A DNA stretch of 64,000 bases from Chrysomallon squamiferum (lineage: Eukaryota; Animalia; Mollusca). Position numbers and translations under genes: made by a program. Numbering within the stretch: the stretch's first letter is position 1; each line of letters begins with the position of its first letter. The notes below the pieces were generated by a model, which ran no database searches, was not told where the DNA came from, and was given only the letters and a program-made list of their open reading frames with translations. The stretch covers positions 5,022,001 to 5,086,000 of the forward strand of contig CM022667.1 in the NCBI GenBank assembly GCA_012295275.1, given 5' to 3'. Shown here piece after piece: positions 32,784 through 44,817 of this stretch.

Positions 32784-35700
32784 ATGAGGTTTTTTCTGCT
32801 GCTTGTCTGTGTAGCTGCTGCAGGGTGTAACGTACTGAGTTCGATACTTCACAGAGAACATCAGGTTATTAATGAAATCAAACTAGATGGTACGTGCTAC
32901 CATACTGTTTTAAACTCAGATTTCAAAGCGTACCCAGTTTTATGAATGTTTATACTGGAAATAGTGGTTAAAATTCTTATCTTTTAGCAACAGCGCAAGA
33001 AATATATCCACACACACACACACACACACACACAAAATAAACAGAATAAATAAATAAATAAATAAGGGTTAATATTCCAAAGATATATTTGTAAACAAAG
33101 AAACGTCAAGATAATAGTGAACGTAAAGCAGCTATTTGTCTTTTTTTTCTGTCCACGTGTGTCCCCCCATTCACAGCTTATTTGTTTAATTTTAGATAAC
33201 TTTCAATGTACATAATAAAATGAGAAAGAAAGAAACATGGCGGCCAATGTGTACTGTTTCGTGTGGTCCTTACATTATTAAAAGTAGTAAATACTGTTTT
33301 GAAATCAGACAAAAACAATCATTTTCTAGTGTACAGAATGCATTTTCTCTTTCTGATATATAAAATTTAAGAAGAAACCTGTTGTTTGCAATCACATACG
33401 ATGTATAAGCTTACAAAACAAAATACTTGAACTCCGCATGAGATGATTTTCTAAAATGTTTTGACGTCAACTCGTACGTCTAGAACAAGTCTACAACTTT
33501 TCTCTGTTTAGTTATTGACGGGGTCATGGAGAAACTGCAGCAACTACAACAACATTTTACCCAACATCGTCCACAGAAGAGGTTTGTCGCCAACAACGTC
33601 AAAGAGGTCGTCAGCTGTGAGTTAAAAACTGTTGTTGTACACAAATTATACTAAAATATACTACCATTCATTTTATATTCATACACATTCACACACACGC
33701 ACACACACACTGATACACACGCACGACTTTCTCACATTTATTTTTGTATATCCGACAGTATTAGAAAAAAAAAATCATATTTATTTTAAGTTGTTATTGT
33801 TATTTTCATTGTTACTGTTATTATTATTATTATTATTACTATTATTATTACTGCGTTGTTGAGGATGATGTTGACGCTGTTATTCTTATACACAATAAAT
33901 CTGATAATTTCAGCCGTTGTTGACACTGTGAAAGGTACGTATCACAGTAAGTATTTATTTATTTATTTATTTATTTTATTTTTTATTTATTTATATATTT
34001 ATTTATTTTTATTTATTTATATTTACTTATTCACTTTTTAAATTTGTTTATGCTCCCTTGTAAAATAATAACAAAATATCTTAATAATAATAAAATAAAA
34101 AATAATAATAATAATAATAATAATAATAATAATAATGATAATAATAAAATAAAAAATAATAATAATAATAATTAACAATAACAATAATAATAATAATAAT
34201 AATAATAATAATAATAATAAATAATAATAATCTTCTTCTTACTGTTGTTTGTCTGGATTTCTCTCATTTAAATCATCATCACTGCAGTCATCACCATCAT
34301 CGTCGTCATCATCATCATCATCATCATCATGGTGAATTTCCACCGATGCAGATGCTGCTAATGATGATGGTAATTCTGACGTCTAGGAGGAAGATGATGA
34401 CTATGATGTCGTAGTGGTGATAATGATACTGATGACGTATTACTGCTGTTGTTATCTAATTGTAGGTGCTGCTGGAACTGTGCATGCTATAGCTCATGGT
34501 AACGTCATTGTTCACAACACACACACACACACACACACGCACGCACGCACGCACAAACACACACGTACATACTTATGTAAAGTCATACTCTCTCTCGCTC
34601 ACCCCTCCCCGCAAACCCACACACATGCACACACACATTAACTCACAATCATACATACAGACACTCATGCATATACGCGCACACACACACACACACACAC
34701 ACACACACACACACACGCACGGCGTTATTATACAACTGTGGCATCTACTATTACTCATTACGTATATACTACTGGCATTAATACGATGACTAAATATATT
34801 GCTATGTGTAGTTTCAATATTTTGTTACTACACCTGTATTCTTTTCAGAAAAAAAAAAAAGAGTTAATAATAATAATAAATAAATGAAACGAAATAAATA
34901 AATAAATAAATAAATAAATTTAAAAAAAAAATAAAAAAGGAAAAAAGGAGAAAAAAAAAAAAAGACGATAAAAGCAACAACACAAACAAACTACAAATTG
35001 TTAAAAATAAACAAACAAACAAACAAACAAACACAGAAATAAACAAATAAATGAAATAAAAGAATCTGTTACAGATTACTGGGAATGTAATGATACTAAT
35101 TACAGCCTGTTTTCATTGCAGCTGTGTCGGAAACGGCAAACACTGTCGACTACCTTGCTAACGGTAAGTTAAGATGTAAAACAAAACTAAAAAACTTAAC
35201 AAAAACACTGTCAGTTATCGTAGCTTGATATCAATATGAATATTTCGCAATGTCATCCTCCATTAGTATAGAAAGGGTTTAAAAAAAATAATAATAATAA
35301 AAAATAAAAAATTATGTATGTATGTATGTATATGCAAATAAAATAAAATAAAAAGTAAATTTGTTGTGCAGTCTGTAACATGTAAAACATGCAGTTCAGT
35401 ATTCACTATTCGGTAGTCACTGTTCAGTATTCACTATTCAGTATTCACTGTTCAGTATTCACCGTTCAGTAGTCACTGTTCAGTAGTCACTATTCAGTTA
35501 AACTGGTTGTTTATCTTGCAGAAACCATCGTTGTGCTGGATCACTTGTTTGGTGAGCGTTTGTCAGCCGTATACAGAGCTGAACGAGTATTTAGTACACA
35601 GTGTTCAAATGATTTTGTCACTAACTGATAGCGTAATGGAAATAATACTTGTATTAATATTTTAGTAGTAGTAGTAGTAGTAGTAGTAGTAGTAGTAGTA

Positions 35701-36031
35701 GTAGTAATAGCAGTGTTGTAGTAATAGCAATAATAATAGTAGTATAATTGAAGTAGTAGTAATAATAGTTGTATTAATAGCAGTAGTAGCAGTTGTTGAA
35801 GTAGTAGTAATAATAGCAGTAGTAACAGTATAGTAGCAGTAATAGCAATGTTGTAATTGTAATAGTAATAATAATAACAGCAGAATGAGCAATAGTAATA
35901 AAACACTAATTACAAAATATAATTATTAACAACCATAAGAAAACAAAACAAAACTAAAATAAACACCTAAAGAACACAAAAGCAATCTGATGTTTTCATA
36001 TTTATGTAAAATATTTCTTATTGCAGGATGA
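32784..36031 (+). CDS. Micro-exon secreted prepropeptide gene A (113 aa); coding exons 32784-32889, 33512-33616, 33914-33934, 34466-34498, 35122-35163, 35522-35551, 36027-36031; probable UTR exons ending 31129 and starting 36312
   Basis: [113 protein letters not shown]. All coding introns are phase 1 with canonical AG/GT. Most exons have a counterpart in gene B. Confidence 0.8.
35393..35499 (+). repeat. 14-bp tandem repeat (gttcagtattcact) just upstream of a micro-exon acceptor
   Basis: About 7 imperfect copies ending shortly before the 35521 acceptor. Confidence 0.8.
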
Positions 36032-42100: not shown

Positions 42101-43196
42101 TAATAATAATAATAATAATAATAATAGTAATAATAATAGTAATAATAATAATAATAAATAATAATAATAATAATAATAATAATGATAATAATGATGATGA
42201 TGATAATAATAATAATAATGATGATGATAATAATAGTAGTAACAATAATAATAATAATAATAGTAATAGTAGTAATAATAATGATAAAACATAATATCAA
42301 CTTAGATAAATAAATAAATAAATAAAGAAAGAAAGAAAGAAAGAAAGAAAGAATTAATTAATACTAAAAAGGAATTATAGCCCAGCTGACAACTTTGATT
42401 AATTTTAATATTTCTTATTTCAGCGATTTCGGAAACAGCGAATACCATAGACAGTGAGTTTCTGTCTACGTTAATATGATTATAAACGGTGATTTCTTTT
42501 CCTTTTTTTAAATACTGCTTTGTCATTTTGCCACGATTGCTCATGTTCTTGTCTACAAATGAAGCTTATTACGTGAGTTTTGACGGTAAGTGGCCATACA
42601 ACCAGTTCTGTGAAAATTAAATATTCACGTCCTGTGAGTGGCAATTCTGACGTAGAAATACTTCACAGTCTATCCTCTTTTTTTAATACTTAGAATGACT
42701 TCCACCTGTGACTGTGAACATTTTGCATATAATTTATCGACTGTCAAACCTGTGAGAAAAAAAAAATTGTTATTATTTTTGTTTTTCTTTTTTTTTTTTG
42801 GTAAGAGATTTAGTCAGAGAGAGAGAGAGAGAGAGAGAGAGAGAGAGAGAGAGAGAGAGAGAGAGAGAGAGAGAGAGAGAGAGAGAGAGGGGTTGAAAAA
42901 TCAAATTGCTTGGAAAAAACAGGGACAAACAGATTTAGATAAACACTCATGAGAGAGAGAGAGAGAGAGAGAGAGAGAGAGAGAGAGAGAGAGAGAGAGA
43001 GAGAGAGAGAGAGAGAGAGCTATAGAACACCCGAGAGAGAGGGAGAGAGAGAGAGAATGACAATAACAAATAGAAACACAATGAAAGAGTTTAGTAGTAG
43101 TAGTTTGAAAACCATAATCATGAGTTAAAACATTTTTTCTTTCTTTTTTTTTATTAAGAAAAATACAGTTTTATTTATTTTTTAATTGTAGGGTAA
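39153..43196 (+). CDS. Micro-exon secreted prepropeptide gene B (149 aa); coding exons 39153-39258, 39745-39849, 40156-40188, 40744-40785, 41326-41358, 41651-41692, 42018-42050, 42424-42453, 42565-42585, 43192-43196; 3' UTR exon from ~43493
   Basis: [149 protein letters not shown]. All coding introns are phase 1. Exon 42565-42585 is the least certain. Confidence 0.8.
40850..41161 (+). repeat. Compound (CTA)n microsatellite with repeated tttcttataccactactagta spacer
   Basis: The spacer occurs 4 times within (cta)n. Confidence 0.85.
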
Positions 43197-44817
43197 AAAT
43201 ATGTAAGTATAGTCTAATTATATAATGATAATAATAATAATGATGATGATGATGATGATGACAACTCCGAGTTAAAATAATGTTAATATTTCAAAATTAA
43301 AAACTGTAAAAACTATTTTTTTTTTATCTATCATCTATGTATCGCTCTGTATATCTGTCTGTTTATCTATCTCAACCTGTATTTATTATTGTATTATTAT
43401 TATTTTTGTTATTTTCTTATATAATTATTTAAAATTATTATTTAAAAATTTTATTTATGTTTCAATGGGTTATTCAAACTTTTTTTTGCAGAGGAATGGT
43501 TGTACGTTATATTTAATAAAACAGGAAAGGAAAATTAATCTTTCAACGATAAAAAAAAAGAAAAAAAAATTAATTCGAAGAAGATAGTGAAATAAATAAA
43601 TTTCTTTTCATCGTAATGTAGCACAAAAAAAAAGAACTATGATCAAATTTATATTTAAAAAAAAATGTCTTCCAGTTCAGTAGTTAGTAAATTATATCAT
43701 TGTCTACACAGGCACACACACACTGCACGATTTTATCAAACACCCTTCTCACTAGCAGCAGATCACCGCTTCACATGGTGGAGGGCGTCAGATAATTTAA
43801 TTCAAATTGTTTCATGTTTTAATGGTTATAACAGCGGCTGTCATACAGATTAATGTTTGTTGACGTCGAAATCCGGGCCAGTGTAAACACGAGTCGCTTG
43901 TTTATAAAAATCTCACAACAGTGAAATCTGACTGACGTCCAGCTACATAGGTGACAGATATAAAACTCGTTAAAGCACATTAATCACGTCTGTGACACCC
44001 GTAATAGCACGTACACTCATTAAATACAGATGCGTGCAGATCACTTTCAACAAAAAAAAAAACAACAACAACAACAACAACAGCAACAACAACAAAAGAT
44101 ATAAAATATAATTTAAAAAAAAAGAGTAAAAAGTAAATAATAATAATCAAAAAAAAAAAAAAAAAATCGTTAAATGAAAGTGATAATCACGTTTTCGCGC
44201 AGTATAAACACGTGTTGTGAACGCACATTCACAAAGTTGCTTGGACACAGTCCTGGTTTCAGTAGGTCAGTTACCGTGCAACACTGGAATGTAAATAGCC
44301 TCGAACTGGTTGTTTAATAACTTTTTTTTTTTTTTTTTTTTTTTGTCTGAACGTCACATGACTTCTGCACGTAGCTATTCACAAAGCAAACAGTCCAGTA
44401 ATATATTATATATATATTTGTTTTTTTTTAATTTTTTTTAAAGGAGAATTTTTTTTTTTTTTGTTGGTTAGTTCTTATTTCTTTAGCAATTCAAAATCAG
44501 GTTTTGAAAATTAAAAATAAGTAAATAAATAAATAAATAAATAATAATAATAATAATAAAAAGAAGAAGACGAAGAAAAAGAAGAAAGAAAAAGAACAGG
44601 AAGAAGACAATGTGATGAAATGATGGATAAAAAGCAACAATACAGTAATAAATAAATAAATAAAATAACAGTAATAGTAATGGTAGTTGTGATTGATGAT
44701 GATGATGAAAAAAAAAAAAAAAAAAAAAAAAAAAAAGAAAAATAAATAAATACATAATTGTAGAAAAAAACAAAATCCCTCGAACACATTATTAGTTCTG
44801 TGATAAGCGAAACTTAC

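What the first reader, a model, noticed from the sequence alone, without database searches (positions are those of the whole stretch)
32784..43202. Tandem pair of micro-exon genes encoding modular secreted peptides, almost invisible to the ORF track
Seen: two paralogs (113 and 149 aa) share a signal exon (106 nt coding) and a pro-region exon (105 nt) ending PQKR/FV or PQQR/FV. A run of 21-42-nt exons follows, all multiples of 3 and all phase 1-1, buried in microsatellite-rich introns. Gene B has three rounds of a 33-nt + 42(30)-nt exon pair (GxSGAVHxVxH / xxSxxANxVD) where gene A has one. Known: this architecture (signal peptide + symmetric micro-exons allowing in-frame skipping) defines schistosome micro-exon genes (MEGs); I recognise no such family with this sequence. 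Inference: a combinatorial system producing a library of secreted peptides (defence, mucus/adhesive, shell or venom), located between a TLR and an Ig gene.
Basis: partly seen in the sequence, partly recalled or inferred. Interest (0 to 1): 0.88.

Follow-up and report, generated by a model that had tools for sequence, protein, structure and literature searches.

The report
Hidden micro-exon genes for helical peptides
Two neighbouring genes in a probable mollusc genome are split into tiny exons that, once joined, would encode secreted peptides predicted to form long two-faced helices that likely stick to membranes or oily surfaces; no relatives turned up, and the proposed mix-and-match splicing is untested.

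Summary
Two tandem paralogues (113 and 149 aa) can be built from GT-AG exons, all phase 1-1. The micro-exons are real coding sequence: they are old copies of one another that differ mainly at third codon positions, while their introns share nothing.

After a basic cleavage site, each mature part (53 and 89 aa plus a final Gly, a likely amidation signal) is a Pro- and Cys-free, anionic, Val/Ala/His-rich amphipathic helix of about 100.5 degrees per residue. The exon lengths (7, 10, 11, 14 codons) are ones that keep this helix in register.

No homologue was found, but only single exons could be searched. It is not a schistosome MEG: micro-exons are 37-52% of the coding sequence, they are under purifying selection, and the host is probably a mollusc. 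No RNA covering the genes was found, so expression and exon skipping are untested.

Best reading: secreted, processed, lipid-surface-binding helical peptides, most likely for defence and dermcidin-like in class, lengthened by exon duplication. A combinatorial library remains possible (about 0.2).

The parts
31590..31662 (+). Gene A, probable 5' non-coding exon (start uncertain)
   Evidence: GTAAGT donor at 31663, score 3.9; inferred
32784..32889 (+). Gene A exon 1 coding part (106 nt): predicted signal peptide and start of pro-region; acceptors at 32775 or 32782
   Evidence: 98 of 105 nt identical to B exon 1
33512..33616 (+). Gene A exon 2 (105 nt): pro-region, dibasic KR site, first 11 mature residues
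33914..33934 (+). Gene A micro-exon 3 (21 nt, 7 codons)
   Evidence: donor score 6.0; rank 5 for the 33-nt profile
34466..34498 (+). Gene A micro-exon 4 (33 nt, 11 codons; HxxxH motif)
35122..35163 (+). Gene A micro-exon 5 (42 nt, 14 codons)
35522..35551 (+). Gene A micro-exon 6 (30 nt, 10 codons); no counterpart found in B
   Evidence: donor 4.5, acceptor 5.1
36027..36041 (+). Gene A 15-nt exon completing a Gly codon, then stop
36312..36360 (+). Gene A probable 3' UTR exon (end uncertain), AATAAA at 36334
   Evidence: acceptor score 10.8
37556..37692 (+). Gene B TATA box (37556) and probable 5' non-coding exon ending at 37692
   Evidence: inferred
39153..39258 (+). Gene B exon 1 coding part (106 nt); acceptor at 39143
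39745..39849 (+). Gene B exon 2 (105 nt): pro-region, single-Arg site, first 11 mature residues; in-frame alternative donor at 39838
40156..40188 (+). Gene B micro-exon 3 (33 nt)
40744..40785 (+). Gene B micro-exon 4 (42 nt)
   Evidence: donor rank 1 of 438
41326..41358 (+). Gene B micro-exon 5 (33 nt)
41651..41692 (+). Gene B micro-exon 6 (42 nt)
42018..42050 (+). Gene B micro-exon 7 (33 nt; HxxxH motif)
42424..42453 (+). Gene B micro-exon 8 (30 nt, shortened 42-nt type)
42565..42585 (+). Gene B micro-exon 9 (21 nt), least certain exon
   Evidence: strong donor 6.6, weak AAG acceptor -3.5; 104 nt without AG upstream; its inclusion gives the C-terminal Gly that A has
43192..43202 (+). Gene B 11-nt exon completing the last codon, then stop
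43492..43540 (+). Gene B probable 3' UTR exon (end uncertain), AATAAA at 43515

Best explanation
These are two real paralogous genes whose exons, once spliced, would encode secreted prepropeptides, likely cut at a basic site and amidated to release long, anionic, predicted amphipathic helices that likely fold on membranes or other lipid surfaces, most likely as surface or haemolymph defence peptides. Shown: exon-intron anatomy, paralogy, coding constraint, the 100.5-degree hydrophobic periodicity, net charge -4 and -5, the C-terminal Gly. Inferred: signal cleavage near residue 19, convertase cutting after Arg59, amidation, and folding on lipid with the His residues (one HxxxH in each peptide) giving pH or metal control as in dermcidin- and clavanin-type peptides. 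The mature part likely grew by repeated duplication of one ancestral micro-exon; only lengths that keep the helix in register (7, 10, 11, 14 codons) were kept. The two paralogues differ mainly in helix length, and the full-length message is probably the main product.
For: Coding constraint: pooled pS 0.67 and pN 0.24 over 12 non-independent exon pairs; 15/4/22 over 4 independent pairs. Between A and B, blastn found only exon-centred matches and simple repeats. Helix: moment 0.349 (A) and 0.378 (B), reached by 0 of 2000 shuffles each; 0.07 and 0.02 at the beta-strand angle; no Pro or Cys. The hydrophobic face points the same way in every exon (86-147 degrees). Deleting 7, 11 or 14 residues leaves the moment at 0.35 and 10 leaves 0.33, whereas 5, 9 or 16 drop it to 0.17-0.21. 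Both genes end in Gly-stop and carry a basic residue directly before the helix. Class precedent: dermcidin is a 110-residue precursor of a 48-residue anionic peptide that forms zinc-dependent channels (PMC9243558, passages); theromyzin is a linear anionic helical peptide of a leech (PMC11767717, passage); His protonation activates clavanins (PMC5198042, passages).
Against: No expression, processing or activity data: none of 4 laid runs covered exons 1, 2, 3 or 5 of gene A or showed a joint. The peptides have only 2 and 1 Lys+Arg and are about neutral even at pH 5 (-0.3 and +0.5), poor for binding bacterial membranes; anionic AMPs are a minority. At 89 aa B is long for such a peptide, and its site is a single Arg. 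The composition fits neutral-lipid-coating helices equally well. The TLR next door is only one of several unrelated neighbours (ATG8, a kinase, a zinc finger). No signal-peptide or convertase predictor was available.
Confidence: 0.45

Rival explanations
1. Lipid-coating or surfactant peptides, working like the amphipathic helices of perilipins and exchangeable apolipoproteins: they would coat lipid particles, egg or mucus films, or an air-water interface, with helix length setting affinity.
For: Low charge (15% and 8% charged), few aromatics (5.7% and 4.5%), Val/Thr/Gly/Ala-rich, 18-residue moment 0.36 and 0.35, against 0.35 for Plin3, 0.30 for alpha-synuclein, 0.39 for ApoA-I and 0.257 for Plin4, where binding rises with length (PMC5889406, passages and Table 1; their method differs from mine).
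Against: The period is 25/7 rather than 11/3: moment 0.17-0.28 at 98.2 degrees against 0.35-0.36 at 100.8. Plin4 needs a net positive charge. A pro-region and amidation signal are more typical of stored bioactive peptides (own knowledge).
Confidence: 0.25
2. MEG-like combinatorial system: regulated or random exon skipping would yield a library of helices of different lengths (up to 16 forms from A and 128 from B). This can coexist with either function above.
For: All internal exons are symmetric; 16 of 16 and 124 of 128 computed skip forms keep a moment of 0.30 or more, and 14 of 16 and 88 of 128 still end in Gly. An in-frame alternative donor lies in B exon 2 and B exon 9 has a weak acceptor.
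Against: No transcript evidence. Micro-exon donors score 0.5-7.1 and acceptors -3.5 to 5.1, against 0.9-9.3 and -0.8 to 3.2 for 3 donors and 4 acceptors of housekeeping neighbours. Purifying selection, unlike the high dN/dS of MEG mature regions (PMC4350168, passages). The native order of B is matched by only 5 of 2000 permutations (A: 10 of 24). Register-keeping lengths are equally expected from selection on exon duplication.
Confidence: 0.2
3. Self-assembling structural material (mucus gel, adhesive, egg capsule or shell-matrix fibre): the small-residue helices would pack into bundles, and the pro-region would block early assembly.
For: Continuous 25/7 hydrophobic stripe of Ala/Val/Ile; His for metal cross-links; secretion.
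Against: No Cys, Lys/Tyr cross-link chemistry or acidic blocks; short length; few charged residues for coiled-coil registration.
Confidence: 0.15
4. Neuropeptide or pheromone precursor acting on a receptor.
For: Signal, basic site and C-terminal Gly are the standard precursor layout (own knowledge).
Against: The C-termini of A and B are unalike, lengths differ by 36 residues, and Pfam gave no family for exons 1-2.
Confidence: 0.08
5. Chance pattern or dead genes.
For: No RNA support; no homologues; a nearby zinc-finger gene carries frame breaks.
Against: Open frames across 7 and 10 exons, strong splice sites, codon-position bias, UTR exons and poly(A) signals.
Confidence: 0.04

Closest known systems
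Schistosome micro-exon genes (MEGs)
   Same: Signal peptide followed by small symmetric exons that allow in-frame skipping; small secreted products; some MEG products bind liposomes, possibly through amphipathic helices (10.1101/2023.06.21.545858, passages).
   Different: MEGs have 10-20 micro-exons, mostly 15 nt, making up to 75% of the coding sequence, documented skipping, high dN/dS, and appear restricted to flatworms. Here there are 4 and 7 micro-exons of 21-42 nt, 37-52% of the coding sequence, tandem copies of one unit under purifying selection, a pro-region, and a probable mollusc host.
Dermcidin (DCD-1L) and other anionic linear helical defence peptides such as leech theromyzin
   Same: About 110-residue secreted precursor, anionic linear amphipathic mature peptide of about 50 residues, His available for metal binding.
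   Different: No homology shown; activity untested; gene B's peptide is 89 aa; built from duplicated micro-exons; predicted amidation.
11-mer-repeat lipid-binding helices (perilipins, alpha-synuclein, exchangeable apolipoproteins)
   Same: Long, weakly hydrophobic, aromatic-poor, Val/Thr/Gly-rich amphipathic helix with similar hydrophobic moment.
   Different: 11- and 14-residue units alternate (25/7 period, not 11/3); net negative; secreted with a pro-region; one exon per repeat.
Tunicate clavanins
   Same: His-containing amphipathic helices activated at low pH.
   Different: Clavanins are 23 aa, cationic and Phe-rich (search listing); these are 53-89 aa, anionic and Val/Ala-rich.

Membership tests
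Schistosome MEGs | Most of the coding region (up to 75%) made of micro-exons | tested here: not met
   37% (A) and 52% (B) counting exons up to 42 nt; 25% and 34% up to 36 nt; definition from PMC4015677
Schistosome MEGs | Symmetric exons in multiples of 3 | tested here: met
   all 5 (A) and 8 (B) internal coding exons are phase 1-1
Schistosome MEGs | 10-20 very short exons, mostly 15 nt | tested here: not met
   4 and 7 micro-exons of 21-42 nt plus a stop exon; definition
Schistosome MEGs | N-terminal signal peptide | tested here: inconclusive
   hydrophobic N-terminus by inspection; no predictor available
Schistosome MEGs | Isoforms made by exon skipping | tested here: inconclusive
   0 joints in 4 laid runs, which did not cover the exons
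Schistosome MEGs | Accelerated evolution of the mature region | tested here: not met
   pN 0.24 against pS 0.67 among paralogous repeats; orthologues were not available, so this is not the same comparison as in PMC4350168
Schistosome MEGs | Flatworm host | tested here: not met
   the three best named hits of the neighbouring zinc-finger ORF are molluscs (Batillaria, Littorina, then Mytilus among orthologue-like rows), 45-46% identical
Dermcidin-type anionic defence peptides | Linear anionic amphipathic helix cut from a small secreted precursor | tested here: met
   met as a prediction: net -4 and -5, moment above all of 2000 shuffles
Dermcidin-type anionic defence peptides | Sequence homology to a described family | tested here: inconclusive
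   exons 1-2: 0 significant Pfam or PDB hits; the spliced mature peptide was not searched
Dermcidin-type anionic defence peptides | Antimicrobial activity, zinc-dependent oligomeric channel | not testable with these tools
   needs a bench assay
Perilipin/synuclein 11-mer repeat helices | Pure 11/3 periodicity | tested here: not met
   moment 0.28 and 0.17 at 98.2 degrees, 0.36 and 0.35 at 100.8
Perilipin/synuclein 11-mer repeat helices | Folding on lipid surfaces | not testable with these tools
   needs CD with liposomes or droplets

The most novel reading that the evidence does not exclude
A free-living mollusc has evolved its own MEG-like system in which each micro-exon encodes a near-whole number of helical turns, so that exon skipping works as a length dial on an amidated, His-gated membrane-active helix and two genes yield over a hundred in-register defence peptides.
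Probability: 0.2. Interest if true: 0.8.

Novelty: new variant of a known kind. Interest (0 to 1): 0.55.

Why it matters
It is an apparently undescribed family of secreted peptides that ORF-based reading misses, with a clean link between gene structure and protein structure: exon lengths match helical turns. If skipping is real, it would be a MEG-like diversifier in a free-living animal. If not, it is still a candidate new class of anionic mollusc defence or lipid-coating peptide that can be synthesised and tested cheaply. Interest is tempered because secreted micro-exon genes recur widely (59 unverified scan notes in at least 36 genomes) and nothing here shows expression or function.

Tried and rejected
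No whole genome is held for this window, so further paralogues could be sought only inside it; none was found.

Homologue searches used single exons only. Exon 1 of A with intron read-through, proteins of 94-2000 aa: 0 of 2 candidates. Exon 2 alignment, 105-2000 aa: 0 of 101. Exon 1 profile against 1.84 billion representatives: 2 hits, both tandem-repeat sequences matching 13-14 positions, rejected. Metagenome contigs: 1 locus of 209 pattern matches, L001, a GC-rich bacterial-looking stretch matching 13 residues, rejected as chance. ESM Atlas for B exon 2: best score 0.83 with low recognition, no lead. Pfam: 0 families for 3 of 4 exon queries, one at E 0.15. PDB: 5 rows, best E 0.38.

Sequencing runs: 6 listed. 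The 4 laid on gene A matched only simple repeats, with no joints; their 5-7% word share is no evidence of expression or habitat.

Literature: searches found no description of a mollusc micro-exon peptide family (0 papers). The library lacks most subscription papers, and no supplement was read; peptide tables such as Table S8 of PMC11767717 and the MEG sequence table of the preprint may bear on novelty. Scan look-ups by place, sequence and words gave nothing for this family. No structure was predicted, because the mature peptides exist only after splicing. The fold of the Ig-like neighbour was not confirmed.
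Full report
Setting. The window is 21-43% GC and rich in microsatellites. Pfam identifies an ATG8 gene, a protein kinase, a single-ORF Toll-like receptor at 25331-28135 (minus strand) and a C2H2 zinc-finger gene. The best named hits of the zinc-finger ORF are from Batillaria and Littorina, with a Mytilus protein among the next orthologue-like rows, all 45-46% identical; only proteins of 298-949 aa were searched. 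The host is therefore probably a mollusc; the class is not resolved. No whole genome is held.

Observation. Joining the exons gives 113 aa (A, 7 coding exons) and 149 aa (B, 10 coding exons), every intron GT-AG and phase 1 (one B exon boundary was off by one base and is corrected). Eight of the nine best donors among 438 GT sites in the two spans belong to the model; the weakest ranks 50th (approximate recalled matrix). All 5 donors without G at -1 are perfect GTRAGT, against 9 of 387 overall. Leave-one-out profiles recover each of the four 33-nt and four 42/30-nt exons above every one of about 127,900 other positions. The next-best hits of each profile are mostly exons of the other class and A's 21-nt exon, which suggests one ancestral micro-exon, although the shared acceptor letters add to those scores. 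Both genes also have a probable 5' non-coding exon, a stop codon in an 11-15-nt exon, and a last UTR exon with AATAAA; B has a TATA box.

Selection. The repeat exons are 51-77% identical in DNA, with pooled pS 0.67 and pN 0.24 over 12 non-independent pairs. Four independent pairs differ at 15, 4 and 22 of 42 first, second and third positions (p=3.6e-5). Outside exons, A and B share only simple repeats. The duplications are old and the protein is conserved. Exon 1 is the exception: 98 of 105 nt identical, with 2 of 35 third positions differing against 17 of 34 in exon 2 (p=3.5e-5). Identity stops about 9 nt into the intron. This suggests recent gene conversion or nucleotide-level constraint.

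The product. Each precursor has a hydrophobic N-terminus (signal peptide by inspection only), a pro-region of about 40 residues, and a basic residue at 59 (KR in A, single R in B). The rest is 53 or 89 residues plus Gly, with no Pro or Cys, net charge -4 or -5 from Lys, Arg, Asp and Glu, and 3 or 5 His. Its hydrophobic moment peaks at 100.5 degrees and exceeds all of 2000 shuffles in both genes; at the beta-strand angle it is 0.07 and 0.02. The face is almost all Ala, Val and Ile and keeps its direction across exons. Removing 7, 11 or 14 residues from B leaves the moment unchanged and 10 nearly so; of lengths 5-16, five keep 0.33 or more, and all four exon lengths used are among them. Each peptide has one HxxxH, and A has a glycosylation sequon formed across the exon 5-6 junction. 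A final Gly is the usual amidation signal (own knowledge); that both genes end so supports B's weak 21-nt exon.

Skipping. The frame and the helix would tolerate it: 16 of 16 and 124 of 128 computed forms keep a moment of 0.30 or more. Nothing shows that it happens. Six runs were listed; the four laid on gene A matched only repeats, with no depth in the bins of exons 1, 2, 3 and 5 and no joints. Splice scores overlap those of 7 housekeeping sites nearby. B's native order is matched by 5 of 2000 permutations, A's by 10 of 24. Register-keeping lengths follow equally from selection on duplications.

Relatives. None was found, but only single exons could be used as queries, so distant relatives of the mature peptide could be missed.

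Comparison. MEGs are described as secreted, with up to 75% of coding sequence in symmetric micro-exons and documented skipping (PMC4015677, passages), 10-20 exons mostly of 15 nt (10.1101/2023.06.21.545858, passages and first part of Results), high dN/dS and apparent restriction to flatworms (PMC4350168, passages). These genes meet the symmetry test and fail on share, number, selection and host, so they are not MEGs, though they could work like them. In product class they resemble dermcidin (PMC9243558, passages), theromyzin (PMC11767717, passages) and His-gated peptides (PMC5198042, passages), and equally the weakly hydrophobic lipid-coating helices of perilipins (PMC5889406, passages with Table 1). 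No supplements were read. Unverified scan notes report secreted micro-exon genes in a cephalopod, sharks, diatoms and a fungus, so the architecture is not rare; none matched this family.

Verdict. Real genes (about 0.95) for secreted amphipathic helical peptides. Defence-type membrane activity 0.45, lipid coating or surfactant 0.25, structural 0.15, signalling 0.08; extensive skipping 0.2, which can accompany any of these. New variant of a known kind; interest 0.55.

Noticed in passing
window 32777-32898 and 39146-39267: Exon 1 of the two paralogues is 92-93% identical, with almost no synonymous change, while exon 2 is near synonymous saturation; the identity ends just outside the exon.
   Followed up: partly
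window 51863-56805 (+): The C2H2 zinc-finger gene lies in three overlapping ORFs. At about 55415 three homologues align straight through a frame change; a second change near 54250 is inferred from the ORFs. Assembly error or a broken allele.
   Followed up: partly
window 47348-47755 and 48456-48529 (-): Signal-peptide exon plus an exon with an Ig-like Cys pattern by eye; 0 Pfam and 0 PDB hits.
   Followed up: partly
window about 44817-45036 (-): A second stretch resembling the C-terminal half of the Ig-like exon, followed by a donor site but carrying an in-frame stop.
   Followed up: no
window 38435-38800: A 52-bp minisatellite, 7 copies at 98% identity, in the probable 5' UTR intron of gene B.
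   Followed up: no
window 25331-28135 (-): Intronless 934-codon Toll-like receptor ORF with LRRNT, LRRs and a weak TIR match just below the Pfam cut-off (20.4 against 21.3 bits).
   Followed up: partly
window 11285-11927: An intronic tandem repeat of about 54 nt reading as repeated peptides on the minus strand, between exons of the kinase gene.
   Followed up: no
window 30175-30466: A GC-richer, open stretch of about 290 nt upstream of gene A with no assigned function.
   Followed up: no
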